This document shows positions 12,453-34,280 of a stretch of DNA of 64,000 nucleotides, one piece after another; position 1 is the first letter of the stretch; the number at the start of each line of letters is the position of its first letter. The notes beneath the pieces were generated by a model, which was not told the DNA's origin, did not search any database, and was given only the letters and a program-made list of their open reading frames with translations. The stretch comes from Candidatus Iainarchaeum sp. (lineage in GTDB: Archaea; Iainarchaeota; Iainarchaeia; Iainarchaeales; JAAZKV01): contig JAQUZG010000001.1 of NCBI GenBank assembly GCA_028691435.1, forward strand, positions 66,921-130,920. Direction: 5' to 3'. The translations under genes and the position numbers were made by a program.

Positions 12453-12613
12453 AAAAAGATATGATTTAATTGGTTTTTAATGGTTTTTGATGTGGTCAGC
12501 CGATTATTTTGAAAAATTTGATTAAATTTTTTATTTTTTTTGATTATTTTTTAAAATTTTGGTTTTACACGCAGGTTTTTAAATAAAAATGCTGTTTATA
12601 TCTATGTGATATT

Positions 12614-13105: not shown

Positions 13106-13109
13106 TTAT

Positions 13110-13343: not shown

Positions 13344-13430
13344 ACTATCACCTTATTTAATTTGTTTTTATTGTATTTAAATTTATTTAATTTAGTTATA
13401 TTTATAAACCTTATATGAAAATATATTCAT

Positions 13431-13745: not shown

Positions 13746-13764
13746 ATATTTTATAGTTGATTTT

Positions 13765-14988: not shown

Positions 14989-14990
14989 TT

Positions 14991-15407: not shown

Positions 15408-15469
15408 TATAATTTTTGCTATTTATTTTTTATTGAGTTAATTTAGTAAAATAAATTAATTTAAAAACA

Positions 15470-15516
15470 ATTTAGTTCAATTCTTTTTAAAGATTTAATA
15501 CTTTGGGGGAAATTAA
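15470..15516 (+). promoter_or_regulatory. Putative TATA-like element plus strong GGGGG RBS for surface-protein gene
   Basis: tttaaagatttaatactttgggggaaattaaATG: A/T box about 30 nt upstream and a G-rich Shine-Dalgarno 8 nt before the start. Confidence 0.3.
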
Positions 15517-18111
15517 ATGGATTATTTTAAACAAATTTTTACAATTTTATTGGGGTTAATTTTAATTAGTGGGGTATTTGCGGCAAGTCCACAAATGTTA
15601 TTTTCTACTGAATTATCGGGTGCGCATTATACTAATTATCCTAGTCTTGATTTTTATGCATCTGATACTGATGGTGATTTAAATACACTTTTAGTTGATG
15701 TGAATTATGTGATTGATAATACTACTATTTTTCATGATCAAAATTCTAGTGTTGCGGTAGCTACTAATGATATTAATCAAAAAGTTAATTTAATTGGTTC
15801 GCCCGATGGGAATTACTTAATTACTTTAACAGCTATTGATAATGCATTAAATACAACAATCCAATCTTATTGGGTGTTTATTGATACTGCTGCTCCAGTA
15901 GTTACATCCGTTGTTACAGTTGATGAAGATTACCTTTATGGAATAAATAGGGAATTAACTGTAAAAGTTAATGCTACTGATTTGTCAGGAATTGGTAGAG
16001 TTTTTATTGATTTAAATAACATAATAAAAACAAATTGTGCAGTATCTGGAAGTTTTTGTGAAATGACTCAAAAAACAGACGGAAATTGGACAATAAATTT
16101 AGGTGATGGGTGGGATTATGATTTTAATCAATTTGATGTAAATGTAAGAGTTGGTGATAAAACTTTAGCAAATTTTGCCGATGCAAATTATTTGTTAAAT
16201 GATGGTCAAGGTATTTTTCTTTATAGTTTAGAATATGTTTCATCTGACTTAAATGGGATTTCATCAACAAATTTTAAAGACATTAATAACTTCCAAAGAG
16301 TTTTGAATTTAACATTTGAAAAAACAGGTTATGGAAAAATTGTTTTCAATCAAGATATTAATTTGCTTGATGGTATGACAGTTAATGAATTATTAAATTT
16401 AGCAAATGCAATAACAATTGATGTTAATAGTGAAAATACTGATCAAAAATCAATTGACATAAATAGTCTAGCTTTTGCAAATTTAAATAAATCAGCAACA
16501 CTATATTTATACAATTTAAATTATTCATCTATTCCAAAAATAATTTACATTAATTCAAGTGGGACTACTGAAGTTTGTTCAACAGATAGATGTTCATCTT
16601 TAGATTATAATTTGGTTTCAAAAACAGCAACATTTAATGTAACTGGATTTAGTAAATATCAAACATCTTATAATTTACCAGTATTTACTAATTCACTTTC
16701 AACAAATATTGATTCTGCTGAATATGAATTTTTTTCAGATTCAAACACACTTCAAATACAAGCTAGTCAAACATTTAAATTATTTATTCCTGTTACAAAA
16801 GGAAGTTATGATTTAAATTTATCATCTTGTAAAATTGATATAAACGGAATTATTTATTCTGCTGATTGGAACAGTGATGGTAATAATTGTCAATATCAAT
16901 TTGTTTCTGGTGTTCCAAATGGATCAAGTTGGACAGTAAAATTTAATATTAAAGATATTAATGGACATGATGTTAATTCTGCAACATACTCAATTGTTGG
17001 AGATTCATCTTCACCAATAATTACAATTTTATCTAATTCTTCAGTTTCAACTTCAACTGGAGTAATTACATTAAGATCTAATGAAAAATCAACTTGTAAA
17101 TATAATTCTTCAAATGTATCTTATGATTCAATGAATTCAAGTGTTTATTCATTAGCTGCAAACACATCATTAAACGTTACAATCTCTGGATTATCTTCTG
17201 GGACATCATATGGATATTATTTTAAATGTAAAGATTATGCTGGAAATGAATCAAATGCTGATAATAATTATATTTCATTTACAACATCTTCATCTTCTTC
17301 ACCTGATTCAGCAGCTAGTTCGGCTTCTTCATCATCTAATTCATCTTCAACAAAAGATTATATTGATGAAACTGCAAATACTCCTAATTCAACACCATTA
17401 GTAATTTCTAAATCTACTGATTCAGATGAAATTTCTAATGATGAAGTTAGAGGAATTTTAACTGATGCAAAAGATAATAATGGTAAAGCTCTATTTTCTG
17501 AAGAAGAAATTTTAAAAATGGTTGAAGAATCAAATAAATTTTCTTTTGTTAGAGAAGTTAAAGTAGAAGAAATTGATAATAATGGAATAATTACTTATCA
17601 AACGACTTTCACAATAAAAATAAAAAATACAACTGATAAAAATTTATCTGATGTATTAATTGTTGAAGTAATTCCAAAAGATTTAATAAATTTTATTGAT
17701 TTAAATATGATTAAATCAATTTATCAATTTAGAATATTAGCTAGTGATCCAGTTGTTGAATTTACTGTTCCATTGGTTGATGCAAATACTGAATTAGTAT
17801 TAGAATATACTATTGATTTAAACAATAAACCTGATGTAAACAATATTGTTTTTTCATCACCCTTAGTAAAAAATACAAACATATTTGTTGCAAAATCAAC
17901 TGATTCAATGAATTGGATTTTTGACATTCTTCAAATTATAATAATTTTGATAGTTCTTGGATTAATTATTGGGGCTGGGATAGTTATTTATTCAAACTCA
18001 AATAAATCTAAATCTAAAACTGATTCAAAAAAAGAGGTTAAAAAATCAACTGATTCAAAAGCGTCAAATTCGAACTCTGAACATAAAGGAAAATTCAAAT
18101 TAAAAAAGTAA
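15517..18111 (+). CDS. Large secreted surface glycoprotein, S-layer-like
   Basis: N-terminal signal peptide MDYFKQIFTILLGLILISGVFAAS. About 800 aa rich in N-x-S/T sequons. Ser-rich linker SSSSSPDSAASSASSSSNSSS. C-terminal TM helix IIIILIVLGLIIGAGIVIY plus a Lys-rich tail. Confidence 0.6.
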   Translation: MDYFKQIFTILLGLILISGVFAASPQMLFSTELSGAHYTNYPSLDFYASDTDGDLNTLLVDVNYVIDNTTIFHDQNSSVAVATNDINQKVNLIGSPDGNYLITLTAIDNALNTTIQSYWVFIDTAAPVVTSVVTVDEDYLYGINRELTVKVNATDLSGIGRVFIDLNNIIKTNCAVSGSFCEMTQKTDGNWTINLGDGWDYDFNQFDVNVRVGDKTLANFADANYLLNDGQGIFLYSLEYVSSDLNGISSTNFKDINNFQRVLNLTFEKTGYGKIVFNQDINLLDGMTVNELLNLANAITIDVNSENTDQKSIDINSLAFANLNKSATLYLYNLNYSSIPKIIYINSSGTTEVCSTDRCSSLDYNLVSKTATFNVTGFSKYQTSYNLPVFTNSLSTNIDSAEYEFFSDSNTLQIQASQTFKLFIPVTKGSYDLNLSSCKIDINGIIYSADWNSDGNNCQYQFVSGVPNGSSWTVKFNIKDINGHDVNSATYSIVGDSSSPIITILSNSSVSTSTGVITLRSNEKSTCKYNSSNVSYDSMNSSVYSLAANTSLNVTISGLSSGTSYGYYFKCKDYAGNESNADNNYISFTTSSSSSPDSAASSASSSSNSSSTKDYIDETANTPNSTPLVISKSTDSDEISNDEVRGILTDAKDNNGKALFSEEEILKMVEESNKFSFVREVKVEEIDNNGIITYQTTFTIKIKNTTDKNLSDVLIVEVIPKDLINFIDLNMIKSIYQFRILASDPVVEFTVPLVDANTELVLEYTIDLNNKPDVNNIVFSSPLVKNTNIFVAKSTDSMNWIFDILQIIIILIVLGLIIGAGIVIYSNSNKSKSKTDSKKEVKKSTDSKASNSNSEHKGKFKLKK

Positions 18112-20066: not shown

Positions 20067-20450
20067 TTAAAGTATATCTTCTATTTTTTTAGCTACTTTA
20101 TTTGCTTCGTCAAGTTTTATCATATAATTTTTGTTTCGTAAAACAAAATCTTGGGGTTTTAAAAGTATCCACCCTTTAAATGGCACTTTCCAAGCAATTA
20201 AAAATATGGCGCCAGCTTTTTTTGCCCAATTTATTTCTTCTTGCATTTGTTCTATTTCAATCGCTAAATAGTTTCCTTTTCGTGCTTTACATTCAAACGC
20301 AATAATTTTACCATTTTTTAGTGCAACAACATCTGGGCAAGGCAATGGATTAACTCCAGAACCAGCTACTCTTAATACAGCATATCCAATTTTATCAAGT
20401 AATTTGATTAATTCTCTTTCAGCGTTTGCTCCTTTTGCGTTTCTTGCCAT
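20067..20450 (-). CDS. hjc: Holliday junction resolvase Hjc
   Basis: KGANAERELIKLLDKIGYAVLRVAGSG...PDVVALKNGKIIAFECKARK is the Hjc nuclease fold (E, D, EVK motifs). Confidence 0.75.
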   Translation of the reverse strand: MARNAKGANAERELIKLLDKIGYAVLRVAGSGVNPLPCPDVVALKNGKIIAFECKARKGNYLAIEIEQMQEEINWAKKAGAIFLIAWKVPFKGWILLKPQDFVLRNKNYMIKLDEANKVAKKIEDIL

Positions 20451-20530
20451 TTAATCACTTTTTTTCCACATAGTAACATTTAAAATATCTTTATTTATTA
20501 ATTTTTCTAAGGATTAGTAAAATTGAGAAT

Positions 20531-20809
20531 ATGAAATTGTATTTAAAGGTTTCAACTGGAAAAAAAGCTTTTAGAATTGTTTTTTTTAATGATGATGAAA
20601 ACAAGCTTTTTGTTGAACTTAAAAATAATCCCAAAGATAATAAAGCAAACATTGAATTAATTAAAAATTTAAAAAAATTTTTTAATTGTGAAGTGAATTT
20701 AATTTCGGGATTTAAATCAAAAGAAAAATTAATTGAAATTATTTCTTCAAAAGAAGAAATTAATTTAGTTTTATTGAATTTCTCAAATACTAATTCTATT
20801 AAAAAATAA
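20531..20809 (+). CDS. DUF167/YggU-family protein
   Basis: KVSTGKKAFRIV...PKDNKANIELIKNLKKFF..EVNLISGFKSKEK matches the DUF167 pattern (GKAN.ELIKFL...V.IVSG..SR.K). Chosen over the overlapping antisense ORF 20491..20817. Confidence 0.55.
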   Translation: MKLYLKVSTGKKAFRIVFFNDDENKLFVELKNNPKDNKANIELIKNLKKFFNCEVNLISGFKSKEKLIEIISSKEEINLVLLNFSNTNSIKK

Positions 20810-20893
20810 TTTATCAAAAATTAAATTCTGATAAATTAAAATAAAAATATAGTCATTCATAAACATGAATTAAAAATAAGGGGTTGAATTAAA

Positions 20894-22489
20894 ATGGCTA
20901 AGACTTATTTAAGTACAGTAAAATATGAAATTAAAGCAAGTTATGAAATTACAGGAATTGTAGATAAACCTGATATTATTGGTGCTATTTTTGGTCAAAG
21001 TGAAGGATTACTTGGTCAAGATATGGACTTAAAGGAATTACAACAAAATGGAAAACTTGGAAGAATAGAAATTTCTGTTAAAAAAGGAAAAGGAAAAACT
21101 AATGGGGAAATAATTATTCCATCTTCATTAGATAAAGTTAAAACAAGTATTCTTGCAGCAACAATAGAAACAGTAAATAAAGTTGGTCCATGTGATGCAG
21201 TAATAAAAATTCTTGGTATAGAAGATACTAGACAAGAAAAACGAAGTGTTATTACAGACCGTGCAAAAGAACTTTTGAAAAGTATGCAAGCAAACGATGA
21301 ATCTACAGAAAGTATTGAAATTGCTGAAGAAATTAAATCAGATATTAGAACTGAAAAAATTGTAAAATATAAAGGACTTGCTGCTGGGCCAGAAGTTGAA
21401 ATGAGTGAAGAAATTATACTTGTTGAAGGAAGAGCAGATGTATTAAAACTATTAAGTTATGGTATAAAAAATGCAATTGAAATGAATGGTAGTAATATTT
21501 CACCAGCTTTAATTGAATTATGTAAAGTAAAAAATGTAACAGTTTTAGTTGATGGTGATAGAGGCGGAGAATTAAATATAAAAAAATTAGCTTCATTAAC
21601 AAAAATTGATTTTGTTGCAAAAGCACCAGATGGAAAAGAAGTTGAAGAACTAACACAAAAAGAAATTTTACTTTCTTTAAAAAGAAAAGTTCCATTTGCT
21701 GAATCAATAAGAAATAATTCAAATCAAGTTGAACAAACAAATAATTTTAATCAAAATCAAGGAAATGGTTATAGAAATAATAATTTTGTTCAAAGACCAT
21801 TTAATCCACACAATAATTTTGGTAATAGGCCAAATTTCAATAATAATGGTGGATTTAATAATAATTTTAATAATCGAAATAATTTCCAAGATAGAAACAA
21901 TTTTGGTAATAGGCCTAATTTCAATAATAATAGAAATGGTCAGAATTTTCAAGGTAATGGTTTTAGGAATAATAATTTTGTTCAAAGACCTAATTTCAAT
22001 AATAATCGGGATGGTCAGAATTTTCAAGGTAATGGTTTTAGGAATAATAATTTTGGTAATCGTCCTAATTTCAATTCACGACCTGGATTTAATCAAAGAC
22101 CTAGTTTTGGGCAACCAAATTTTAGATCAGATGCTCCTGTAGAATTTGATCAAAATCCAAGATTTGAAAATCAAAATATTGTTAGAGAAGAAAGAAACGA
22201 AGTAGTAACACCAAAAGAAATTCTTAATTTAAAAAAAGATTTTGATAAATTAAAAGGAAAAGGAAAAGCACGACTACTTGACGAAAAATATAAAAAAATC
22301 AAAGATGTTGGCGTAAAAGAAATGGTTGACACTATTGCAAAATCAAAGAAAAAAGTACATGTTATAATGTATGATGGAGTAATTTCAAAAAAAGTAATTG
22401 ATACTGCTGAAGAAAAAAACATCCCATATATTGTGGCTGTAAAAAAAGCAAAAGTATCTTCAACTAAAGTAAAATTAATTACAATGTAA
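20894..22489 (+). CDS. dnaG: Archaeal DnaG (Toprim primase-like, exosome-associated) with a large N/F/R/G-rich low-complexity insertion
   Basis: N-terminus KPDIIGAIFGQSEGLLGQDMDLKELQQNGKLGRIEI is diagnostic of archaeal DnaG. A Toprim region follows. An insertion of about 140 aa made of NNFGNRPNFNNN / GQNFQGNGFRNNNF repeats precedes the conserved C-terminus. Confidence 0.8.
   Translation: MAKTYLSTVKYEIKASYEITGIVDKPDIIGAIFGQSEGLLGQDMDLKELQQNGKLGRIEISVKKGKGKTNGEIIIPSSLDKVKTSILAATIETVNKVGPCDAVIKILGIEDTRQEKRSVITDRAKELLKSMQANDESTESIEIAEEIKSDIRTEKIVKYKGLAAGPEVEMSEEIILVEGRADVLKLLSYGIKNAIEMNGSNISPALIELCKVKNVTVLVDGDRGGELNIKKLASLTKIDFVAKAPDGKEVEELTQKEILLSLKRKVPFAESIRNNSNQVEQTNNFNQNQGNGYRNNNFVQRPFNPHNNFGNRPNFNNNGGFNNNFNNRNNFQDRNNFGNRPNFNNNRNGQNFQGNGFRNNNFVQRPNFNNNRDGQNFQGNGFRNNNFGNRPNFNSRPGFNQRPSFGQPNFRSDAPVEFDQNPRFENQNIVREERNEVVTPKEILNLKKDFDKLKGKGKARLLDEKYKKIKDVGVKEMVDTIAKSKKKVHVIMYDGVISKKVIDTAEEKNIPYIVAVKKAKVSSTKVKLITM
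21936..22054 (+). repeat. Near-perfect 44-bp direct repeat (period 75 bp) inside dnaG low-complexity region
   Basis: atggtcagaattttcaaggtaatggttttaggaataataatttt occurs at about 21936 and 22011. More degenerate copies lie upstream from about 21760. Confidence 0.7.
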
Positions 22490-22524
22490 ACTTTTTTTTA
22501 AAAGTTTATAAAAAATCAAAGATT

Positions 22525-22632
22525 TAAACTCTAAAAATAATTTTTAGAGTTTACTAAATTATTTTTGTGCAACCTAATGGGTTGCGATTTATTTTTTTAA
22601 AAAAATTTGTTTGCAACTCAATTGAGTTGCAA
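22525..22632. terminator. Three tandem perfect hairpins between convergent genes (bidirectional terminator candidates)
   Basis: Hairpin 1: 22525-22553 taaactctaaaaat/aatttttagagttta (13-bp stem). Hairpin 2: 22569-22585 gcaacc-taatg-ggttgc. Hairpin 3: 22611-22632 ttgcaactcaa/ttgagttgcaa. Each is flanked by A/T runs. Confidence 0.45.
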
Positions 22633-22645
22633 TTAAAAATTTGAA

Positions 22646-23146
22646 TTATTTTTTCTTTTTAAAAGCTCTAACTGGAGCATTTTTTTGTTTTAATTCTTTA
22701 AATGGTCTTAATGCTACTTGTGTTTCTTCAATTGGTAAAACAAAAGATGCGCTTAAGTAAAGATTTATTGCGAATAACAATAATGCTGCATATATGAATA
22801 ATATTGCAACTGGGAATGTTAATGCAGTAATCTTCTGTCTTGTTGTTAAAAATGTTTGATTAGGTGGTATTTGTGCACCAGTAATATCTTTTAATGAACT
22901 TTTACAATCTTGAAATTGTAATTGTGAAAGAACTTTTTGTTCTGTTGTTACATCCATTGTTTTATAATCAATTATTCTTGAATCAACAACGCATGTGTCA
23001 AAATCTCTTATAACTTGCCAAGAGTCAAAAACAACTGCAAAAGAATTAATAAACATCATAACTGCTATGATTATTAAAAAAATTGCGAATGATCTAACTA
23101 ATGGGTTATAATCTGAACCTATTTTAAATAATGATAATTTTTTCAA
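22646..23146 (-). CDS. Hypothetical membrane protein (2 TM)
   Basis: Hydrophobic segments AIFLIIIAVMMFINSFAVVF and VAILFIYAALLLFAINLYL. No motif. Confidence 0.4.
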   Translation of the reverse strand: MKKLSLFKIGSDYNPLVRSFAIFLIIIAVMMFINSFAVVFDSWQVIRDFDTCVVDSRIIDYKTMDVTTEQKVLSQLQFQDCKSSLKDITGAQIPPNQTFLTTRQKITALTFPVAILFIYAALLLFAINLYLSASFVLPIEETQVALRPFKELKQKNAPVRAFKKKK

Positions 23147-23364
23147 TCTAATCGCCCCCGATTTCTTAATTAATTAAGGAAAACTTATATTTAAAGGTTG
23201 TTAATAATTGTTTTTTGAAAATCTTATAAATGAAATAAATGTAGTTACCTCTTTTTATTAAATATAACAATTTTTATAAATTAGTTGATGTTTGTTTAAC
23301 TTTTCATTTTTCTAACTTTTTTAAAATAATAGTATTAATGTTTAGTTAATTTATTTTACTTAAA

Positions 23365-24753
23365 CTAAATTTTGCCAATTCGTTTGATGCCATGTGTTCG
23401 CATATATTCTTGCCAAACAATAAACACTATGCCTTTTGAAGCATCAAGATCTTTTCCACCAATCCTTAATTTTTTTGCGAATTGCTCAATTGTTTCAATT
23501 AATCCATTAAAATCAGTAATCACTGCATTATGGGCTGCTTTTGGATTTTTATAAAACCCAGCTGTATCCAAATCTAATAATGTTGAGGATGCAGTAATAT
23601 TATGTCCTGAAAAAACGCTCATTCCTTGTGAAGATAAAGATCCGCCTAATCTAACATCAAATGCGTATAATGATAATGCTAACCTACATGAAAAAACAAA
23701 TAATAATTCTTTTTTTACCTCATTTAATGAAACAAATTTTTTTGCTATTCTTGAATAAACTTTGCCTGTTTTAAGTGAATCCTTTGTTAGATTTATCCCA
23801 TAGTAGTCCATTGTTTGTCTCCAATCTTCATCAAATCTAAATTTATTAAGTTCCATAATCCTATGATTCAATGGGACGGAATATGCAAAATAAATTGGAT
23901 TTTTAATTTTTCCTTTTAAACTTGTGGCAGCTAAACCTTTCATTAATTTAAACCATCTAGCTCCCTTAAGATTTTTAATTGCTTTTTTTTCTTCTAAAGA
24001 AAGATATTTAGAATATTTCTTTATAAATGCATCTGGGTTTTTAATTGCAAGGGGAACTTGTTGTAAATCAAAAACTGCAATTGGATTCATAACACTTACT
24101 CGTCTTATAGCAGTAATTGAAAAATATTTTCTTACAAAAGGATCTGTTTTTAATTTAACTAATTCGTTTCTCAATAAGTTAGCATTTTCAATTGCGTTTG
24201 TAATTGTTTCTTCTCTTGCTAATCCAATATATCTCTGTTCTACAACATTTGGCCATCGTACGTATTCAAAAATAGATTTTACATTTGAATCAGTACTCAC
24301 TTTGTTTTTAAATTTTGACCTTCGTTTAATTTCATTTTCAGCTAATTTTGAAAAAAAATCATCATCCCTAAATAAACCATTCGCTTCAAAACTTTTTTTT
24401 AATTTTATTTCAATCTGTTCTTTAGATAAATTTGATTCAGATTCTGACTTAATCCTATTTTGTGATGCCCCCGTCCCCTTCATTACCAAAGTCATTTGTC
24501 TATTTGATTTTCCTTTTGGGGAAGTAGCAAAACTTCGCCCATGCGCCCCATCAAATTTAGTTTCAGGAGTCTTAATTGGAACAAGGTATAAATTTCTAGT
24601 ATCATGCCCATTTTCACGTAAACTTTCACCTACTTTTAAACGATGAACTGGGACTAGTAGGCTTCTTTGGTTTTTCAATGCTTTATGATCAAGCGGTAAA
24701 TCTAGTCTAAGTCTTGCTAAAACTGACATTGAATTAATTCTTTTTCTATGCAT
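23365..24753 (-). CDS. Hypothetical protein, compositionally atypical (GC-richer). Possible Pol-beta-like NTase motif near C-terminus.
   Basis: 462-aa ORF whose DNA is visibly more G/C-rich than its flanks. Basic, disordered N-terminus. The C-terminal GGSLSSQGMSVFSGHNITASSTLLDLDTAG ... AVITDFNG resembles a GS...DhDh...D nucleotidyltransferase pattern; a kinase-like H-N/DLD loop is an alternative. No family assigned. Confidence 0.35.
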   Translation of the reverse strand: MHRKRINSMSVLARLRLDLPLDHKALKNQRSLLVPVHRLKVGESLRENGHDTRNLYLVPIKTPETKFDGAHGRSFATSPKGKSNRQMTLVMKGTGASQNRIKSESESNLSKEQIEIKLKKSFEANGLFRDDDFFSKLAENEIKRRSKFKNKVSTDSNVKSIFEYVRWPNVVEQRYIGLAREETITNAIENANLLRNELVKLKTDPFVRKYFSITAIRRVSVMNPIAVFDLQQVPLAIKNPDAFIKKYSKYLSLEEKKAIKNLKGARWFKLMKGLAATSLKGKIKNPIYFAYSVPLNHRIMELNKFRFDEDWRQTMDYYGINLTKDSLKTGKVYSRIAKKFVSLNEVKKELLFVFSCRLALSLYAFDVRLGGSLSSQGMSVFSGHNITASSTLLDLDTAGFYKNPKAAHNAVITDFNGLIETIEQFAKKLRIGGKDLDASKGIVFIVWQEYMRTHGIKRIGKI

Positions 24754-25012
24754 ATCATTATTTATTTTTTAAAATTAATAATATTAACTATTATTAAAAA
24801 AGAGTTTGTTTACTTTATTCAATGATTTTAAGTTATGTATTTTAATTCAAAATTAATTGAAATATTTTTTTATTAAATTTATTGTAAAAAGGTTAAATTT
24901 GATTAAATATATTGTAAAAGAATGTTAATTGAACATATAAATCCAAGCACATAAAAAAATCAAAATTATATTATTTCTAGAAATTATTTCATATAATTTA
25001 AAAATTAATTAA

Positions 25013-25561
25013 TTATCTCAAGTTTAAATTAGTTAATCCATTAAAAAGTTTCACTGGAATTGTTTTTTTTAATTTACTAACATCAAGATATGATATCTGT
25101 CCAGTTTCATCTTTTATTAAAATTGATAATTTTTTAGTAAATGGGTGAGTAGTTATTTCAATAAATTTTCCACCATAAATTTTTCCGCTATTGCTTATGA
25201 ATGCGATTTGATCGCCAGGATAAACTCCTATAACTAATTTTCTTGCTTTTAATTCAATTTTTGAAATTGGGCCTCTTGCAAGTCTTTTTGCAAGTAATTT
25301 TTCATTAAACATTTCTTTTCTTCTTTGTGTAATATTTTTACTTATTTCTGTAAGATTTCCAATGGCTATTAAGTCAGCTCTGTTTTTTGGTCTTTGATTT
25401 TTTAATACTGTTTTTGTTGCTCTATCTTGTTCTCTTGCATGTTCTGATGCTTCTATTGCTTTTTCTCTTTCTTTAATTAGTCTTTTTTTTCTTAATTGAT
25501 ATTTTACTCTATCAGTCACAGTTGGCTTTGGTTTTCTTGCAAGCATATTTAATCTACTCAT
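25013..25561 (-). CDS. Hypothetical basic protein with C-terminal small beta-barrel (KOW/SH3-like?)
   Basis: N-terminal K/R-rich 110 aa, then KLVIGVYPGDQIAFISNSGKIYGGKFIEITTH. Confidence 0.3.
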   Translation of the reverse strand: MSRLNMLARKPKPTVTDRVKYQLRKKRLIKEREKAIEASEHAREQDRATKTVLKNQRPKNRADLIAIGNLTEISKNITQRRKEMFNEKLLAKRLARGPISKIELKARKLVIGVYPGDQIAFISNSGKIYGGKFIEITTHPFTKKLSILIKDETGQISYLDVSKLKKTIPVKLFNGLTNLNLR

Positions 25562-25576
25562 TTTTAATTTATATAT

Positions 25577-26338
25577 TTATCTTTTAGTTTTAAAATGTCT
25601 AAACACACTTTTTGAAGATTGTCTTGAGTGTAATTCTGCTAACGATTGGTTAATTGGTGCTTTCTTTCTTTTTTTTAATAAAGCTATTTTTAATGAATTT
25701 AAAACACGTTGTTTTGTTTTTGATTTTTTAGCATTATCATTTATAATTTCTCTGATTAATTTTCTTTCTCGTCCAAAAATTATTGTATTAATTGAAATAT
25801 TTGTTAAATCTTTAAATTGACTTAATTGTTCTCTTAAATTCGCTATGTGGCCAGCGCCCACAATAACAAAAATTAAACTATTTGCTCTTGTGTATGCACT
25901 AGCTCTAATATTTGCACTCATTGCATGTTCTCTTAAGTTTTCTAAAATTTCTAATTTTTTTGAATTAGTTTTTGAAAATTTTTTCTTTAATAAATCCGTT
26001 ATTTTATTGTGTTGTTGTTTAATACTCTTTGATTCAATAGGTATAATTTCAATACCTCTTTTTTTAGCAGTTATAATTATTTCTTCAAAAGCGTTATAAT
26101 CACTAAATAATTCATTAACTTTTTCTTTGTCTTCTGGAGATCCAAATCTTTTAATAGCAATTTTATAATTATTTATTTGTTGAAAAATTTCATTATAATT
26201 AAATGGAACTTCAAGAGCAATTCTTGAATTTCTTGGTAATTTTTGAATATAATTAATTATAGCTTCATGACATTTTAATTGATTGTCATGTACTAATGGA
26301 ATTAATTCAATTTTTGGTAATAAATTAGTTTGAACCAT
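25577..26338 (-). CDS. TraB/PrgY/GumN (TIKI)-family-like protein, putative
   Basis: C-terminal SLIFVIVGAGHIANL resembles the second GxxH motif of the TraB/TIKI family. The N-terminal motif is divergent. Confidence 0.35.
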   Translation of the reverse strand: MVQTNLLPKIELIPLVHDNQLKCHEAIINYIQKLPRNSRIALEVPFNYNEIFQQINNYKIAIKRFGSPEDKEKVNELFSDYNAFEEIIITAKKRGIEIIPIESKSIKQQHNKITDLLKKKFSKTNSKKLEILENLREHAMSANIRASAYTRANSLIFVIVGAGHIANLREQLSQFKDLTNISINTIIFGRERKLIREIINDNAKKSKTKQRVLNSLKIALLKKRKKAPINQSLAELHSRQSSKSVFRHFKTKR

Positions 26339-26432: not shown

Positions 26433-28181
26433 CTAATTTAATGTTTTTTCTTTGATTTCTTTTTTTACTTGATCAATAAATTCATCAAGTGTCATTGTTT
26501 TTTGTTCATTTTGTCTATTTCTTATAGTTACTGTTTTATTTTCTTGTTCTTTTGCCCCGGCAACAATTAAATAAGGAACTTTTTCTTTTTGTCCCTCTCT
26601 AATTCGATAACCTAGAGTTTCGTTTCTGTCATCAAGTTTTACTCGAATTTCTTCATCAAGTAATTTTGAATTAATTTCTTTAGCATACTCGCTAAAATTT
26701 TCAGAAACTGGTATGATTATAGCTTGAACTGGAGAAAGCCATGTTGGAAATTTTCCTCCAAAATGCTCAATTATAATTCCTGTGAATCGTTCAAAAGAAC
26801 CAAATGGAGCTCTATGGATCATTACTGGTCTATGGTCTTTTCCATCTGTGCCGGTATAATTCAAATCAAATCTATCTGGTAAATTATAATCTAGTTGTAT
26901 TGTTCCAGTTTGCCATTCTCTTCCTATTGCATCATTAATTACAATATCTGCTTTTGGGCCATAGAACGCTGCATCTCCTTCTTCAATTGTAAAATTAATG
27001 TTTTTTTCTTTAACAACATCGATTATTTCTTGTGTTGCTTTTTCCCAAATTTCTTTTGGCCCAACATATTTGTCACTATTTGGATCACGTGTGCCAATTC
27101 TCACTCTAAAATTTTTTAATCCAAGAGTATTCATTACATCCATTACTAAATCAAATACTCCTTTGAATTCTTGTTTTACTTGTTCTTGTGTACAAAAAAT
27201 ATGGGCATCGTCTTGAGTAAACCCTCTTACTCTTAAAAGTCCTGATAATTCTCCACTTTTTTCATATCTATAAACTGTTCCCATTTCACTTATTCTAAGT
27301 GGAAGCTCTCTATAACTTCTTTTTGTCTTTGCATAATATTCAATATGAAAAGGACAATTCATTGGTTTTAGATAATATTCTTCATCATCAATTTTTATTG
27401 GAGCATACATTATATCTTTATAATGTGCTAAATGCCCTGATGTAGAAAAGAGGTCTGATTTACCAATGTGTGGAGTTATCATAAATTGATATCCTCTTTT
27501 TTGTTGTTCTTTAATTAAGAAATTTTGTAATTGCATTCTAAGCATTGTTCCATTTGGGCACCAAATTGGAAGGCCTCTTCCAACTTTTTCACTCATCATG
27601 TACAAATCTAATTCTTTTCCAAGTTTAATGTTAGAATTTTCTTCAGCTTTTTTTCGTAGTTCAATCCACTCATTAAGTTCTTGTTTTGTTTTAAATGCGA
27701 TTCCATAAACTCTTTGTAATTGTTTATTTTTTTCATTACCTTTCCAGTAAGCTGATGAAATTTTTAATAGTTTTATTGTCCCTATTTCACCAACATTGTC
27801 TAAATGTGGGCCTTTACACATATCAATAAATTGACCATTTGTGTAAGTTGAAATTTCTTTTTCACCGTTTGCTTGGAGATCGTTGATCATTTCAATTTTA
27901 TATTTATTTTTTTCAAATATTTTTTTTGCTTCGTCAATTGAAACATTTTTTTGAATCATTTTATCTTTTCTTTTAAGTATTTGATTCATTTTTTGTTCAA
28001 TTTTATCAAGATCACTTTCTTTTAGATTGTAATCTAAATCAAAATCATAATGAAATCCTTGTTCTATTGGTGGACCAATTGCGATTAGAGCCGTCGGATA
28101 TTCACTAGTTAGTGCTTCTGCGAACACGTGTGCACTTGTGTGCCAAAACTTTTCCATATATTCTTTATCCGATTTTTCCAT
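26433..28181 (-). CDS. thrS: Threonyl-tRNA synthetase (class II), lacking N-terminal TGS domain
   Basis: Class II motifs plus HRAPFGSFERFTGIIIEHFGGKFPTWLSPVQAIIIPV and anticodon-binding C-terminus. The protein starts at the editing-domain HTSAHV motif. 582 aa. Confidence 0.8.
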   Translation of the reverse strand: MEKSDKEYMEKFWHTSAHVFAEALTSEYPTALIAIGPPIEQGFHYDFDLDYNLKESDLDKIEQKMNQILKRKDKMIQKNVSIDEAKKIFEKNKYKIEMINDLQANGEKEISTYTNGQFIDMCKGPHLDNVGEIGTIKLLKISSAYWKGNEKNKQLQRVYGIAFKTKQELNEWIELRKKAEENSNIKLGKELDLYMMSEKVGRGLPIWCPNGTMLRMQLQNFLIKEQQKRGYQFMITPHIGKSDLFSTSGHLAHYKDIMYAPIKIDDEEYYLKPMNCPFHIEYYAKTKRSYRELPLRISEMGTVYRYEKSGELSGLLRVRGFTQDDAHIFCTQEQVKQEFKGVFDLVMDVMNTLGLKNFRVRIGTRDPNSDKYVGPKEIWEKATQEIIDVVKEKNINFTIEEGDAAFYGPKADIVINDAIGREWQTGTIQLDYNLPDRFDLNYTGTDGKDHRPVMIHRAPFGSFERFTGIIIEHFGGKFPTWLSPVQAIIIPVSENFSEYAKEINSKLLDEEIRVKLDDRNETLGYRIREGQKEKVPYLIVAGAKEQENKTVTIRNRQNEQKTMTLDEFIDQVKKEIKEKTLN

Positions 28182-28321: not shown

Positions 28322-28918
28322 TTATCTCGTTGCACGTTTGCATCTTTCTCTTCCACAAAGAGAGTGAAACTCTGTGCAAAAATAATTTCCATCACTTATT
28401 TTTAAAAATTTGCAATTGTCCCAACTAGTGTCTCCTCTAAATGTTGAACCACTTTGTTTTATTACATTGGCAACAATATTACAATGTTGTTTTCCAATTT
28501 TTTGATTAGTTGTAGAAAAATTTTCATTTGATTTACTGTCTTGAATTTCTTCAACAATTGGTTGAGGTTTAGCATAATAAATTTCACTATCACTTGATTT
28601 TTTTGGTTCATCCGAATTGATATTTTGATTAATTAAAGGTTCATTAGAATCCATATTGTTTATATCATTACTTTCAATTGATTGAGAATAACTTGGTTTT
28701 ACCCCATATTTTTCTTGAGCTTGACTAATTAGTGATTCTTGATTAGAATCTTGACTTTTTAGACTTTCTTTTAAATCATTAAATGCACTTTTATCACATG
28801 ACTCCCCATCTATGATTTTACCAGCACTTGCCTTTATTTCAGAATTAGCTCTTCTTTGTTCAATATGTCTATCTGTTTGTTTTGCAGATGCTAACATGTC
28901 TCTCATTGCCATATACAA
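28322..28918 (-). CDS. Hypothetical protein with Cys-rich C-terminal module
   Basis: Ser/Asn/Gln-rich low-complexity N-terminal part. C-terminal CNIVANV...C..C...C..C cluster suggests a Zn-binding domain. Confidence 0.35.
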   Translation of the reverse strand: MYMAMRDMLASAKQTDRHIEQRRANSEIKASAGKIIDGESCDKSAFNDLKESLKSQDSNQESLISQAQEKYGVKPSYSQSIESNDINNMDSNEPLINQNINSDEPKKSSDSEIYYAKPQPIVEEIQDSKSNENFSTTNQKIGKQHCNIVANVIKQSGSTFRGDTSWDNCKFLKISDGNYFCTEFHSLCGRERCKRATR

Positions 28919-29038
28919 ATATAATGACTAATATTGGCTTAAAAATCTTTTCAAAACAACATTTTACTAAATTTTTAGTTTAATTCAACCAATTATATCC
29001 TTTTAACTTATTTTTGATTTTAATATATTTGATTAATT

Positions 29039-30271
29039 ATGATTTCTCCAGAGATTTGTATAAAATGTAAAGGGAAACTTCTTTGTGGATTAAAGTCTTG
29101 TCCAATTCTTGAAAAAAACTTTTCATCATCAAAAATTATTTCATCAATTAAAAATAATAATTTTAGTGGGTTTTCGCCACCTGGATTTTTTGTTTCTTGG
29201 AATAATTATCCAAAAGTAGCAGTTGCTCCTCTTTCAATGGCCCAAAGTGAGTCTGTTCAAATTAGTGATTTGCCTGAAAAATGGTATGGTTTACCTCAAG
29301 AAAAAATAATTTCATTTAGAGAATCACTTTTAAGATCGTATAAAATAATGTCTGTAAATTTAGCAAAAAATCCAAATTATGAACTTCTTAATTTTCAAGA
29401 ATTGACAATGTCAAAAAAAAATATTAATGTGGAAGTTAATCTTGACAGTAAACCAAAACTGGATACTTCTTTTGATTCGTTTTCTGCCCCTATGGGGCCA
29501 AGTGCAAAATTAAAGAAAATTTCTTTTTCTTCAAATATTAGTATTCCAAAAAAACTTGATTATTATAATCGGGATGTTGATGTAAAATCCAATGTTGCTT
29601 TAATTGACTTATATGAATCAGGAATAGCAGTCTCAACTTTAGCAAAAGTTTTATCCAGTGGATCACTTGGAGTAAAAAAGAATAGAAAAATTGTTCCAAC
29701 AAGATGGAGTATAACTGCTGTTGATAATAATATTTCAAAATATTTTATTAATGAAAAAATTATTGAAAATAAAATTATTGATAATTATAAATTATTTCAT
29801 TCAAATTATCTGGATAATAATTTTTATATTTTACTCCTTCCTTTTGCTTTTTCTTTTGAACAAATTGAAACTTGGTTGCCTGGTGGAATTTGGAATGCTG
29901 GTGCAAAAGATTATCAAATTCTTTCGGATTATGAATTAACTGCTGGATTAAAGGGTTATCCATCAGAAACAGAAGGGGCATATTATGCTGCTAGACTCGC
30001 AGTAGTAGAATATTTAAATAGAAATAAAATTAATGCTGCTGCAATTGTTTTTAGAGAAATTGGTCAAAATTATGCTGTTCCTTTAGGTGTTTGGCAAATA
30101 AGAGAAAATGTTAGAGCTGCATTAAAAGAAAAACCTCTTGAATTTTCAACATTTGATTTAGCCCTTAATTTTTTATCAACAAAATTAGTTGTGCCAATAG
30201 CACAATATAAGAAAAAATCAAACTTAATAAAACATTTTAAATTTCAAAAAAGATTAAACGAATGGTTCTAA
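29039..30271 (+). CDS. NreA-like DNA-repair protein (DUF650/DUF651-type) with C-terminal PIP box, putative
   Basis: N-terminal Cys cluster CIKCKGKLLCGLKSCP. The extreme C-terminus FQKRLNEWF fits the PCNA-interacting motif Qxx[LIM]xx[FWY][FY]. It is adjacent to and divergent from rfcS. Confidence 0.45.
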   Translation: MISPEICIKCKGKLLCGLKSCPILEKNFSSSKIISSIKNNNFSGFSPPGFFVSWNNYPKVAVAPLSMAQSESVQISDLPEKWYGLPQEKIISFRESLLRSYKIMSVNLAKNPNYELLNFQELTMSKKNINVEVNLDSKPKLDTSFDSFSAPMGPSAKLKKISFSSNISIPKKLDYYNRDVDVKSNVALIDLYESGIAVSTLAKVLSSGSLGVKKNRKIVPTRWSITAVDNNISKYFINEKIIENKIIDNYKLFHSNYLDNNFYILLLPFAFSFEQIETWLPGGIWNAGAKDYQILSDYELTAGLKGYPSETEGAYYAARLAVVEYLNRNKINAAAIVFREIGQNYAVPLGVWQIRENVRAALKEKPLEFSTFDLALNFLSTKLVVPIAQYKKKSNLIKHFKFQKRLNEWF

Positions 30272-30278
30272 AATTTAA

Positions 30279-31235
30279 TTATTTCATGAATTGTGCAAGT
30301 AATGCTTCAATTTGTATTCTTTCACTTGCGCCTTCTACTAATCTAAAATCATATTCTCCAATTTTATCAATTAAATCAATTTTTTTCTTTTCAGTTAATT
30401 TTTCATTTTCTAAATCCATTGTTTCTCTATAAATTTGTTTGATTATATCTTCTCCACTCATACCATAATCATACATTAATTCATCAAGCTTTTTTCTTGC
30501 TTCAAGAAATTTGTGATCAAGTGCAAGTATAATCATTTCTTGAACTTCTTTTGGTCTTGCTTTACTTGCAACAGAATATACTCCTTCTTCAGTAATATTT
30601 TTACTTAATGATGAACATGCTTGTAAGATATTGATTGCTTTTCTTAAATCTCCTTCTACAACATAATTAATTGCTTTTTTTGCTTGACTATCAATAGTTA
30701 ATTTTTCAGTATTGCACACAATGTCAATTTGTTTTTCAATATCACTAGCCATCAAAGGTTTAAATCTATAAACAACACATCTTGATTGAATTGGATCAAT
30801 AATTTTTGAAGAATAATTACAGCTTAAAATAAATCTACAGGTTTTTGTATATTTTTCCATTGTTCTTCTTAGTGCTTGTTGTGCATCAGTAGTTAATGCA
30901 TCACATTCATCTAAAAAAATTATTTTAAAATCACTATTAAATGCTAAAGTTCTAGCAAAGTCTTTAATCGTATTTCTTACAATTCCTATTCCTCTATCAT
31001 CACTTGCATTTAATTCTAAAAAGTTTTGTTCAAAATTTTCACCAAATAATTCTTTTGCCATTGCAATACTTGATGAAGTTTTTCCAGTTCCTGCTGGTCC
31101 AGAAAATAATAAATTTGGTAAATTTTTTATTTGAATATAATTTTTAAGTCTTTTAGTGATATCTTCATGGCCCACGACATTTTCCATTTTAATAGGACGA
31201 TACTTTTCAATCCATGGTAATTCTAAACTAGTCAT
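30279..31235 (-). CDS. rfcS: Replication factor C small subunit
   Basis: KYRP...LLFSGPAGTGKTSSSIAMAKELFG, DEAD-like Walker B IIFLDECDALT, SRC motif DPIQSRC. Confidence 0.85.
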   Translation of the reverse strand: MTSLELPWIEKYRPIKMENVVGHEDITKRLKNYIQIKNLPNLLFSGPAGTGKTSSSIAMAKELFGENFEQNFLELNASDDRGIGIVRNTIKDFARTLAFNSDFKIIFLDECDALTTDAQQALRRTMEKYTKTCRFILSCNYSSKIIDPIQSRCVVYRFKPLMASDIEKQIDIVCNTEKLTIDSQAKKAINYVVEGDLRKAINILQACSSLSKNITEEGVYSVASKARPKEVQEMIILALDHKFLEARKKLDELMYDYGMSGEDIIKQIYRETMDLENEKLTEKKKIDLIDKIGEYDFRLVEGASERIQIEALLAQFMK

Positions 31236-31349
31236 AATATTATTTAATTTAGAAATAATTAAAAGCTAAACCTTTTGCGATTTGCATTCTAATTCTAAAA
31301 GCGAATAATTAAAAACATTATATTTTATGAATAATTTATATTTAGAGGG

Positions 31350-32048: not shown

Positions 32049-32098
32049 TTAATTATTATTTCAAATTCTATTTTTTATTTTTTAAGGTGTATTTATTG

Positions 32099-33364: not shown

Positions 33365-33469
33365 ATATTTTTTATATCTGATTTTTTCAAGTTATTTTTT
33401 TATTATTTTAATTTTTATTAATTTTTATAAAAATGCTCTATTTTTAAACTTTTTTTCTAATTATTAAGT

Positions 33470-34279: not shown

Positions 34280-34280
34280 T

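What the first reader, a model, noticed from the sequence alone, without database searches (positions are those of the whole stretch)
23147..24753. Compositionally foreign gene flanked by long AT-rich spacers
The 462-aa ORF is visibly GC-richer than its surroundings (runs such as ccccgtcccc and gcgcccc are essentially absent elsewhere). It is bracketed by unusually long non-coding spacers of 218 and 259 nt in an otherwise tightly packed genome. This is consistent with horizontal acquisition. The protein has a basic, disordered N-terminus and a C-terminal GGS...(21)...DLD...D pattern reminiscent of minimal Pol-beta-type nucleotidyltransferases or a kinase-like catalytic loop. It is not assignable from sequence alone and is a candidate novel enzyme, for example a defence or mobile-element protein.
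Basis: partly seen in the sequence, partly recalled or inferred. Interest (0 to 1): 0.6.

Follow-up and report, generated by a model that had tools for sequence, protein, structure and literature searches.

The report
Rare SelO-like kinase-fold gene in DPANN archaeon
The flagged gene is not clearly foreign DNA; it encodes a real protein from a very rare, unnamed family, found mostly in tiny DPANN archaea, whose predicted structure most resembles the AMP/UMP-attaching "pseudokinase" SelO/YdiU.

Summary
The ORF 23365..24753 (-), 462 aa, is real. Its two flanking spacers (218 and 259 nt) are among the five longest of 61 gaps in the window.

The "foreign composition" claim is weak. Gene GC is 30.2% against a gene mean of 25.2% (sd 3.8), rank 4 of 53. 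Most of the excess follows from amino-acid composition. I found no att-like repeats, no integrase, no adjacent tRNA, and no phage, plasmid or defence match. The neighbours are housekeeping genes.

The protein matches no Pfam, NCBIfam, PADLOC or PDB sequence. Only 13 cluster representatives exist among 1.84 billion, mostly from Diapherotrites/Iainarchaeota MAGs.

By a low-confidence motif alignment, SelO's Lys, Asn, DFG-Asp and one phosphate-binding Arg are retained. Its nucleophile-activating Asp, alphaC Glu and second Arg are not. As in SelO, there is no canonical HRD Asp.

Best reading: a new SelO-like kinase-fold family, probably a nucleotide-using (NMP-transferring) enzyme. It is not a Pol-beta nucleotidyltransferase.

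The parts
23365..24753 (-). CDS, 462 aa: SelO-like protein-kinase-like (PKL) fold protein. NCBI record MDD3159442.1, locus tag PHQ98_00565, 'hypothetical protein'.
24532..24549 (-). Residues 69-74, GAHGRS: N-lobe motif 'H-x-R-S'. H71 is nearly invariant in the family.
   Evidence: Alignment A2. Codons GGG GCG CAT GGG CGA AGT. Extended hhalign places H71 opposite the His of SelO 'GHQFG' with low confidence.
24469..24480 (-). Residues 92-95, KGTG: strand ending in the putative beta3 Lys (K92), followed by G-x-G. This is the other GC-rich run.
   Evidence: K92 and G93 nearly invariant. Strand E88-92 in the model. Aligned to SelO 'HLKGAG' K113. The K113 role comes from PMC8097203.
24259..24465 (-). 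Residues about 97-165: helical insertion (three helices plus a loop), present only in this protein and P0002.
   Evidence: Gapped in the other 13 family sequences. Helices 99-106, 111-124 and 131-149 in the model.
24139..24228 (-). Residues 176-205: 'G-G/L-A-R' motif (G177 invariant), a long alphaC-like helix (181-203) and the invariant D204-P205.
   Evidence: Aligned to SelO 'GDGRAVLRSSIRE' with low confidence. The alphaC Glu position is not conserved in the family.
23860..23883 (-). Residues 291-298, Y-S-V-P-L-N-H-R: invariant Y291 and R298, seven residues apart, at the positions of SelO R176 and R183 (gamma-phosphate ligands).
   Evidence: Invariant columns. Strand 286-293. hhalign extension gives Y291 to R176 and R298 to R183. 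The R176/R183 role comes from PMC8097203.
23554..23622 (-). Residues 378-400, MSVFSGHNITASSTLLDLDTAGF: catalytic-loop and metal-binding segment. It holds invariant N385 and D394 (nine residues apart, as SelO N253 and D262) and nearly invariant D396.
   Evidence: This is the only segment that hhalign aligns to SelO at default settings (E 0.047). It follows the long helix 343-368, as in a kinase C-lobe.
24754..25012 (.). Upstream spacer, 259 nt, 11.6% GC. Presumed terminator of the 182-aa gene and own promoter of the target. No ORF of 26 or more aa, no Rfam hit, no stable fold.
23147..23364 (.). Downstream spacer, 218 nt, 17.4% GC (305 nt if the next gene starts at the ATG at 23059). It ends in a GGGGGCG tract just upstream of the TTG start of the 166-aa membrane protein.

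Best explanation
The ORF is a resident, independently transcribed gene. It encodes a member of a very small, unclassified protein family with a protein-kinase-like fold. The nearest known relative is SelO/YdiU, the 'pseudokinase' that binds the nucleotide flipped and transfers AMP or UMP to proteins.

Inferred mechanism:
- The N-lobe Lys (K92 in KGTG) and the Arg after strand 286-293 (R298) hold the distal phosphates of an NTP.
- N385 and D394 hold Mg2+/Mn2+.
- The enzyme transfers a nucleotide-derived group to a substrate. NMP transfer with release of pyrophosphate is the most likely reaction. Transfer of the gamma-phosphate is less likely.

The family lacks the canonical HRD Asp, as SelO does. 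It also lacks SelO's own nucleophile-activating Asp, so a different residue would have to activate the substrate. Candidates are the family-specific invariant or near-invariant residues D396, D204, H71 and Y291.

The mild GC excess reflects Gly/Ala/Arg-rich conserved motifs in a genome drifting to 25% GC. It is not demonstrable foreign origin.

Shown: the gene is real, the family is rare, the fold is kinase-like, SelO is the closest solved structure, and the motifs are conserved.
Inferred: the residue equivalences, the flipped nucleotide, the chemistry, and the substrate (unknown).
My sub-probabilities: PKL fold 0.9. SelO is the closest known family 0.75. Catalytically active 0.7. NMP transfer specifically 0.35-0.4.
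For: Real gene:
- Full-length homologue at 48% identity, with conservation concentrated in motifs.
- 12 remote homologues with the same motifs.

Fold:
- AF2 on alignment A2 gives pLDDT 87.5 and pTM 0.84, against 47.9 with only two sequences.
- Foldseek independently ranks four YdiU chains first (E 4e-3 to 2e-2, prob 1.00).

Motifs:
- hhalign of the family against a SelO alignment picks exactly the N...D active-site segment: N385 to N253 and D394 to D262, both nine residues apart.
- Greedy extension gives a collinear set: H71 to GHQFG His, K92 to K113, Y291 to R176, R298 to R183.
- The roles of these SelO residues are in PMC8097203 and bioRxiv 10.1101/692707.
- The position five residues before N385, where kinases have the HRD Asp, is V/S/P/C across the family and Val in SelO.

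Chemistry:
- Both top structural neighbours are adenylating enzymes rather than phosphotransferases. For SelO/YdiU. For NIS synthetases this is from my own knowledge.

ATP-linked context:
- In one bacterial protein, P0014, the domain occurs twice, at least once directly after a HATPase_c domain, together with a PPDK-like ATP/His phosphotransfer module.

Resident gene:
- All neighbours with a family match are housekeeping: Hjc, DnaG-like Toprim, ThrRS, Nre, RFC, IscS/IscU.
- No repeats, integrase or defence hits.
- Four of the six organism-named family members (P0001, P0008, P0012, P0013) are from Diapherotrites/Iainarchaeota, the phylum the source assigns to the host.
- Homologues track the GC of their hosts across 35-62%.
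Against: - Sequence-level support for homology to SelO is weak. hhalign gives E 0.047, probability 1.1%, score 23.4. An unrelated ProRS control gave E 0.39, score 15.4.
- There is no Pfam PF02696 hit in any of the 15 members even at E 10, and no PDB sequence hit.
- Foldseek TM-scores to YdiU are only 0.31-0.32.
- SelO's alphaC Glu (E136), R176 and nucleophile-activating Asp (D252 in P. syringae, D246 in E. coli) are not conserved in the family.
- I could not inspect model coordinates, so the placement of K92, R298, D396, D204 and H71 around a nucleotide pocket is untested.
- No conserved gene neighbourhood points to a substrate.
- The model rests on only 15 sequences.
- The synonymous GC residual is the highest in the window, and the gene is absent at the syntenic site of relatives. 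An older transfer therefore cannot be excluded.
Confidence: 0.6

Rival explanations
1. It is a conventional phosphotransferase. It would be an atypical protein kinase or small-molecule kinase of the PKL superfamily that binds ATP in the normal orientation and transfers the gamma-phosphate. An alternative base (for example D396 or D204) would replace the missing HRD Asp.
Confidence: 0.2
2. It is a non-catalytic pseudokinase: a scaffold or nucleotide sensor that keeps the fold but performs no transfer reaction.
For: It lacks the HRD Asp, the alphaC Glu and SelO's catalytic Asp. Divergence is very high within a tiny family (20-27% identity for all members except P0002).
Against: The residues that survive 20-27% identity are exactly the nucleotide- and metal-binding ones: K92, N385 and D394, plus R298, D396, H71 and D204. 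Such a pattern is typical of active enzymes.
Confidence: 0.1
3. It is an NIS-synthetase-like (IucA/IucC-type) ligase. It would adenylate a small-molecule carboxylate and condense it with an amine or alcohol.
Against: They score below SelO. No Pfam IucA_IucC or FhuF match appears even at E 10. The protein is about 120 residues shorter than NIS synthetases. No siderophore or other biosynthetic genes are nearby in any of the six contexts.
Confidence: 0.07
4. One reading: a recently, horizontally acquired gene encoding a minimal Pol-beta-type nucleotidyltransferase (CD-NTase or MNT-like) with a defence or mobile-element role.
For: GC and GC3 are in the upper tail, and the synonymous GC residual is the highest of 53 genes. 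Both spacers are long. The gene is absent downstream of ThrRS in relatives that are collinear upstream of it. One distant family member (P0010) lies beside AbiE, PIN and MqsA-like toxin-antitoxin genes.
Against: GC lies within the gene distribution and is matched by ThrRS. There are no att-like repeats, integrase or adjacent tRNA. There are no PADLOC, PHROG, BFVD, phage, plasmid or IMG/VR matches. The fold is kinase-like, with no Pol-beta NTase among the top structural matches. The non-collinear segment also contains core genes (Hjc, DnaG-like), so the difference is a rearrangement and not an island.
Confidence: 0.03

Closest known systems
SelO / YdiU (Pfam PF02696, UPF0061): protein adenylyltransferase / UMPylase pseudokinase. 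Structures 6EAC, 6K20/6LNA, 6III, 9JYM.
   Same: Best structural match by two methods. Both have a protein-kinase-like fold without the HRD Asp. Both have a 'KGxG' Lys strand. The Asn and Asp metal ligands are nine residues apart. An Arg lies at the R183 position. Total size is similar (462 against about 480 aa).
   Different: No detectable sequence-family membership. The alphaC Glu is not conserved. R176 is replaced by an invariant Tyr. The nucleophile-activating Asp just before the Asn is variable. There are extra invariant residues: D396 (giving D-x-D), D204-P205 and H-x-R-S. There is no C-terminal CxxS/Sec redox tail. This protein has a roughly 70-residue helical insertion. The family is found in DPANN archaea, whereas SelO is reported as almost absent from archaea (3 of 107 genomes, Euryarchaeota only; PMC3281104).
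NIS siderophore synthetases (IucA/IucC family: AcsD 3FFE, SbnC 7CBB)
   Different: Lower scores than SelO. No sequence-family match. NIS synthetases are longer (565-586 aa). No biosynthetic gene context.
Eukaryotic-type and atypical protein kinases (ePK, RIO, Bud32/PRPK, haspin)
   Different: No HRD Asp. No conserved alphaC Glu. No Pkinase, RIO1 or Kdo Pfam match. SelO-type extra elements align better, with 246 residues aligned.
   Same: Only a superficial G-S ... D-x-D string and, possibly, nucleotidyl-transfer chemistry.
   Different: Different fold. G-S to D-x-D spacing is 21 residues, against about 10-13 from my own knowledge. The first Gly is not conserved. No structural or PADLOC match.

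Membership tests
Protein-kinase-like (PKL) fold superfamily | Bilobal fold: a beta-rich N-lobe and a helical C-lobe, with a long alphaE-like helix followed by the catalytic loop and a metal-binding Asp. | tested here: met
   [not shown]
Protein-kinase-like (PKL) fold superfamily | Conserved nucleotide and metal ligands: beta3 Lys, catalytic-loop Asn, DFG-type Asp. | tested here: met
   K92 is nearly invariant. N385 and D394 are invariant in 15 sequences at 20-49% identity.
Protein-kinase-like (PKL) fold superfamily | Catalytic Asp of the HRD motif (five residues before the Asn). | tested here: not met
   This position is V/S/P/C in all members. The same is true of SelO (HGV).
SelO/YdiU (PF02696) | Match to the family profile at or above the Pfam gathering score. 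| tested here: not met
   No PF02696 hit for any of the 15 members even at E 10. hhalign against the SelO alignment gives E 0.047, probability 1.1%.
SelO/YdiU (PF02696) | Closest structural similarity to solved SelO/YdiU. | tested here: met
   [not shown]
SelO/YdiU (PF02696) | Active-site set K113, E136, R176, R183, N253, D262 (P. syringae numbering). | tested here: inconclusive
   By a low-confidence alignment, K113, R183, N253 and D262 have conserved equivalents (K92, R298, N385, D394). E136 is not conserved. R176 corresponds to the invariant Y291. The 3D placement could not be checked.
SelO/YdiU (PF02696) | Asp immediately before the Asn (D252, or D246 in E. coli) that activates the substrate nucleophile. 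| tested here: not met
   The position is H/L/Q/T/G/E/D/I/Y/W across the family; it is H384 here.
SelO/YdiU (PF02696) | Flipped nucleotide orientation and transfer of AMP/UMP. | not testable with these tools
   This needs biochemistry or a ligand-bound structure.
Pol-beta nucleotidyltransferase superfamily (CD-NTase, MNT) | Alpha/beta NTase fold with G[SG]-x(about 10-13)-[DE]x[DE] on adjacent strands and a third carboxylate. | tested here: not met
   [not shown]
NIS synthetase (IucA/IucC) | Match to the IucA_IucC / FhuF profiles and a biosynthetic gene context. | tested here: not met
   [not shown]
Genomic island / recent horizontal transfer | Composition outside the genome's gene distribution. 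| tested here: not met
   GC rank 4 of 53, about +1.3 sd. The synonymous residual of +0.020 compares with +0.017 for ThrRS. Codon bias B ranks 6 of 27 among genes over 300 aa.
Genomic island / recent horizontal transfer | Flanking direct repeats, an integrase or transposase, or a tRNA target. | tested here: not met
   Only short AT-rich chance repeats. The nearest tRNA is at 3584-3670. Neighbours are housekeeping genes.
Genomic island / recent horizontal transfer | Presence/absence polymorphism at a conserved locus in relatives. | tested here: inconclusive
   Relatives L009 and L010 (ThrRS about 71% identical) are collinear with window 28322-38641. Downstream of ThrRS they carry ProRS and FlaI/T2SSF-type genes instead. 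The differing segment in the window also holds the core genes Hjc and DnaG, so this is a rearrangement.
Anti-phage defence system | Match to known defence protein models or a conserved defence-island context. | tested here: not met
   PADLOC gives 0 families for the target and for P0002. Only one distant member (P0010) lies beside AbiE, PIN and MqsA-like genes.

The most novel reading that the evidence does not exclude
This is the founding example of a previously undescribed, DPANN-centred sister family of SelO. It would use the flipped-nucleotide, NMP-transferring mechanism with a re-wired catalytic centre: D-x-D instead of D-F-G, Tyr instead of Arg176, no Asp before the Asn, and an extra H-x-R-S motif. 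That would mean protein NMPylation by kinase-fold enzymes exists in archaea, where SelO itself is almost absent. Such an enzyme might regulate translation or stress proteins in these reduced-genome, probably host-dependent cells.
Probability: 0.3. Interest if true: 0.7.

Novelty: new variant of a known kind. Interest (0 to 1): 0.5.

Why it matters
SelO/YdiU showed that a "dead" kinase can bind ATP upside-down and attach AMP or UMP to proteins. It is described as widespread in bacteria and eukaryotes but nearly absent from archaea (PMC3281104).

A structurally SelO-like family would matter for three reasons. It keeps the nucleotide and metal ligands but swaps the residues thought to activate the substrate. 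It is found mainly in Diapherotrites/Iainarchaeota and Altiarchaeota MAGs. It would therefore extend this chemistry, or a new variant of it, to DPANN archaea and give a natural experiment on which residues are essential for the flipped-ATP mechanism.

It also attaches a concrete, testable hypothesis to an orphan "hypothetical protein" family that no profile library covers.

For the genome scan itself, the lesson is cautionary. GC-rich runs in a 25%-GC genome can simply be Gly/Ala/Arg catalytic motifs and need not signal foreign DNA.

Tried and rejected
1. Profile and sequence libraries: Pfam, NCBIfam, PADLOC and PHROGs scans of the target, of P0002 and of all family members gave nothing.
2. 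PDB sequence and profile searches gave only noise (CTP synthase; 'Gogy').
3. Word-indexed search of 5.8 billion proteins, with the single sequence and with a two-sequence profile, returned only the protein itself and P0002.
4. AF2 with the two-sequence alignment was unusable (pLDDT 47.9). It was rescued only by adding the remote homologues.
BFVD viral structures gave no match.
6. Scans of genome contigs with A1 and A3, metagenome contigs with A1, and viral contigs with A1 and A3 found no relatives. A2 was too divergent to seed a scan.
7. DNA of P0002's contig could not be fetched, so I could not make a codon-level or dN/dS comparison.
8. tblastn against plasmids and phages found no match.
9. 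Search for att-like repeats found only AT-rich chance matches.
10. Spacers as ncRNA or small genes: there is no Rfam hit in either spacer, since the only match at E of 1 or less lies inside the CDS. There are no ORFs over 34 aa. Folding is weaker than shuffles.
11. Conserved neighbours: the flanking 166-, 182- and 253-aa proteins have no homologues next to any other family member.
12. aaRS genes lie nearby in some contexts (ThrRS here, AspRS at P0002, GlnRS at P0010). I judged this not significant (about p 0.1 by my own rough binomial).
13. The 484-aa ORF downstream of ThrRS in relative L010 looked like a possible positional counterpart. It is ProRS.
14. The primary SelO paper (PMC6524645) is not held. 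Residue roles were taken from a review and from the YdiU preprint.
Full report
**Source and setting.** The window is 25.1% GC. The target protein is identical to NCBI MDD3159442.1 (locus tag PHQ98_00565), a 'hypothetical protein' from a MAG. The source names the organism 'Candidatus ainarchaeum sp.'. No such name exists in the taxonomy. The nearest name is Candidatus Iainarchaeum (phylum Iainarchaeota, formerly Diapherotrites; DPANN / Nanobdellati).

Every gene around the target that has a family match is a housekeeping gene:
- IscS/IscU, PTH2, a GTPase, NUDIX and Hjc;
- DUF167 and a DnaG-like Toprim protein;
- ThrRS, Nre, the RFC small subunit and a MiaB-like radical-SAM enzyme;
- an AsnC regulator, topoisomerase I, NFACT and CDC48.

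**Checking the observation.** The ORF 23365..24753 (-) of 462 aa exists. Its start is corroborated by the homologue P0002.

The spacers are as stated: 218 nt downstream and 259 nt upstream. With all start codons allowed, the window has 61 gaps, median 59 nt and 90th percentile 181 nt. These two rank 5th and 3rd, and the longest gap contains a tRNA. Their base composition (17.4% and 11.6% GC) is typical of intergenic DNA here (16.8 +/- 5.1%). They contain no ORF longer than 34 aa and no Rfam match. They fold less well than shuffled controls (z +1.15 and +1.40). I read them as plain promoter and terminator DNA, which implies that the gene is its own transcription unit.

The GC claim is only mildly true.
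- Gene GC is 0.302 against a mean of 0.2515 (sd 0.038), rank 4 of 53. ThrRS is 0.301, Hjc 0.318 and CDC48 0.311.
- Given its amino-acid composition and genome-wide synonymous usage, the expected GC is already 0.282.
- The residual (+0.020) is the largest of 53 genes but barely above ThrRS (+0.017). Karlin codon bias ranks 6th of the 27 genes over 300 aa.
- The excess sits in residues 1-100.
- The 50-codon GC3 maximum (0.28, residues 51-110) ties for second of 1607 windows. Two other genes show equal or higher peaks.
- 12 of 25 Gly codons are GGC or GGG, against 21% genome-wide.

The strongest compositional outliers in the window are in fact AT-rich genes, for example 42763-45912 at 16-20% GC.

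**Rarity and distribution.** The word-indexed search of 5.8 billion clusters found only the protein itself and one homologue. That homologue is P0002 (JGI sample 3300072015): 48% identity, full length, on a 45-kb contig.

The exhaustive HMMER search of 1.84 billion cluster representatives found 13 at E of 1e-3 or better. None carries a Pfam domain in the homologous region.

The organisms named by the sources are:
- Diapherotrites/Iainarchaeum for P0008, P0012 and P0013;
- Altiarchaeota for P0006;
- one Omnitrophota bacterium for P0014.

P0003 lies on an archaeal-type contig, next to L11-Spt5-SecE-FtsZ.

The alignment of 15 domains (A2) has 20-27% identity for all but P0002. Even so, G177, D204, Y291, R298, N385 and D394 are invariant, and H71, K92, G93, P224, G319 and D396 are nearly invariant. 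Residues of about 97-165 are an insertion peculiar to the target and P0002.

**Fold.** With two sequences, AlphaFold failed (pLDDT 47.9). With A2 it gave pLDDT 87.5 and pTM 0.84. That includes an ordered N-terminal region, with residues 11-60 at pLDDT 90-95, which contradicts 'disordered'.

Foldseek against the whole PDB independently ranked four E. coli YdiU/SelO chains first (E 3.8e-3 to 1.6e-2, probability 1.00), though with low TM-scores of 0.31-0.32. SbnC came next. No Pol-beta nucleotidyltransferase appears in either list. BFVD viral structures gave nothing.

**Residue mapping to SelO.** I recovered genuine SelO sequences from the PDB. A sequence I recalled from memory served only as bait, and the deposited sequences were read from the output. 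From these I built a small SelO alignment, A4.

hhalign of A2 against A4 gives a single default local alignment. It is exactly MSVFSGHN385ITASSTLLD394LDTAGF against HGVMNTDN253MSILGITFD262FGPFAF. The PDB chain numbering is one higher than the native numbering used here. The score is 23.4, E 0.047, probability 1.1%. An unrelated control (ProRS) gave score 15.4, E 0.39. The sequence signal alone is therefore marginal.

With greedy extension, the same alignment runs collinearly through:
- H71 to the His of GHQFG;
- K92 (KGTG) to K113 (KGAG);
- G177 to the GDG motif;
- Y291 to R176;
- R298 to R183.

In SelO, K113, R176 and R183 hold the buried gamma-phosphate of the flipped ATP. E136 stabilises K113. 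D262 (the DFG Asp) is essential (PMC8097203). For E. coli YdiU, the authors made K107A, E130A, N247A and D256A among their active-centre mutants and report that most such mutations abolished activity. They propose that D246, the residue just before the Asn, activates the substrate (bioRxiv 10.1101/692707). SelO lacks the HRD Asp and has HGV instead (PMC3281104).

In the new family:
- the HRD-Asp position is V/S/P/C, as in SelO;
- the position of D246/D252 is variable (H384 here);
- the alphaC Glu is not conserved;
- R176 is an invariant Tyr.

The family therefore shares SelO's nucleotide and metal scaffold but not its proposed catalytic base. It has its own invariant acidic and basic residues (D396, D204, H71).

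**Mechanistic reading.** What is shown: a confident kinase-like fold, SelO as the nearest structure, and conservation focused on nucleotide and metal ligands.

What is inferred: an active enzyme that binds an NTP with Mg2+/Mn2+. Three observations point to NMP transfer. The best two structural neighbours, SelO and the NIS synthetases, are adenylating enzymes. The SelO-specific phosphate-binding Arg position is invariant. The HRD Asp is absent. I therefore favour NMP (AMP/UMP) transfer with release of pyrophosphate, at probability 0.35-0.4, over gamma-phosphate transfer, at about 0.2. The substrate is unknown.

The only functional context clue is P0014. This is a 2695-aa Omnitrophota protein in which the domain occurs twice (537-897 and 2096-2439). 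The second copy directly follows the HATPase_c domain at 1966-2072. Pfam reports a second HATPase_c stretch whose coordinates the scan did not give. A PPDK-like ATP-binding and mobile-His module (1191-1529) lies between the two copies.

**Foreign or native?**

Evidence against recent transfer or a mobile element:
- no att-like repeats;
- no integrase, transposase or adjacent tRNA;
- no PADLOC or PHROG matches;
- no relatives in plasmids, phages or IMG/VR;
- a family centred on the host's own phylum;
- homologues whose GC tracks their hosts (0.35/0.38, 0.45/0.50, 0.62/0.61, 0.47/0.50).

Relatives of the host have 29-39% GC. This lineage has therefore drifted strongly to AT, and constrained Gly/Ala/Arg motifs would lag behind.

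Evidence for a non-conserved locus:
- Metagenome contigs with ThrRS 70-76% identical were recovered.
- L009 and L010 are collinear with window 28322-38641.
- Downstream of ThrRS they carry ProRS (L010 only), a FlaI/T2SSE ATPase and a T2SSF protein.
- They carry none of the window's genes from 20067-26338.

That segment also contains the core genes Hjc and DnaG-like. It is therefore a rearrangement breakpoint and not an inserted island. The near-absence of close homologues in 15 billion proteins means the gene is patchily distributed. Gain or repeated loss cannot be distinguished here.

**Comparison with the known, and verdict.** The protein works, by inference, like SelO/YdiU. It is not a member of PF02696, because the profile match and two catalytic-residue criteria fail. 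It is a member of the PKL fold superfamily. It is not a Pol-beta NTase, not an NIS synthetase by sequence or context, and not a recognisable defence protein.

I found no paper describing such a family.

I rate it a new variant of a known kind, with moderate interest. It is worthwhile for people studying pseudokinases, AMPylation and DPANN biology. The evidence is purely computational and rests on a 15-sequence model and low-confidence residue equivalences.

Noticed in passing
window 21899-22075 (within CDS 20894-22489, +): The DnaG-like Toprim protein carries a roughly 130-residue Asn/Phe/Gln/Gly/Arg-rich low-complexity insertion (NNFGNRPNFNNN...). It includes a 75-nt tandem repeat of 2.4 copies at 88% identity. 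This is a prion-like, expanding segment inside a core replication/RNA-degradation protein.
   Followed up: partly
window 42763-45912, also 7591-9111 and 34281-35816: The real compositional outliers of the window are AT-rich genes. Five small genes at 42763-45912 have 16-20% GC. Two roughly 510-aa genes have 19-20%. All are further from the gene mean than the flagged gene.
   Followed up: no
window 3584-3670 (-): Rfam finds a tRNA (40.8 bits, 87 nt), but ARAGORN reports no tRNA anywhere in the window. It may contain an intron or be otherwise atypical. It lies in the longest gap.
   Followed up: no
window 26433-28181 boundary; loci L009, L010 (positions about 11700-17000): Synteny with the nearest relatives (ThrRS about 71% identical) holds for window 28322-38641 but ends exactly at the 3' end of ThrRS. 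The relatives continue with ProRS (L010 only), a FlaI/T2SSE ATPase and a T2SSF protein. The window continues with two orphan genes, the target, a membrane protein, DnaG and Hjc.
   Followed up: partly
window 23153-23160 and 22646-23146 (-): A GGGGGCG tract lies 7-14 nt upstream of the TTG at 23146 that would start the 166-aa two-TM membrane protein. It resembles a ribosome-binding site and favours the TTG start over the ATG at 23059.
   Followed up: no
window 22568-22586 (+) and 22632-22611 (-): Two convergent terminator-like hairpins with T-tails sit in the 156-nt gap between the DnaG-like gene and the 166-aa gene. Four such sites occur in 3.3 kb, against 0.8 expected.
   Followed up: no
L006 1-8088 (GCA_016214265.1, Omnitrophota): A 2695-aa partial protein carries two copies of the SelO-like domain, two HATPase_c stretches (the one with reported coordinates lies directly before the second copy) and a PPDK_N / PEP-utilizers module. 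It is a candidate multi-step ATP-dependent signalling enzyme.
   Followed up: partly
L002 3212-7197 / L003 1951-5936: The distant family member P0010 lies directly downstream of an AbiEi/AbiEii pair. It is near a PIN-domain gene and, in L003, an MqsA-like antitoxin. This is the only family member found in a toxin-antitoxin or defence-like neighbourhood.
   Followed up: no
window 25577-26338 (-) and 25013-25561 (-): The two genes between ThrRS and the target are orphans. The 253-aa protein has only sub-threshold TraB/PrgY/GumN, Tiki and ChaN-like matches (E 6e-4 to 4e-3). The 182-aa basic protein has none. Neither has homologues in the related loci.
   Followed up: partly
window 38875-39417 (+): An apparent 847-nt gene-free gap (with ATG-only ORF calling) is filled by a 180-aa ORF with a TTG start. 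TTG starts therefore need to be allowed when judging spacer lengths in this genome.
   Followed up: yes
[not shown]
   Followed up: no
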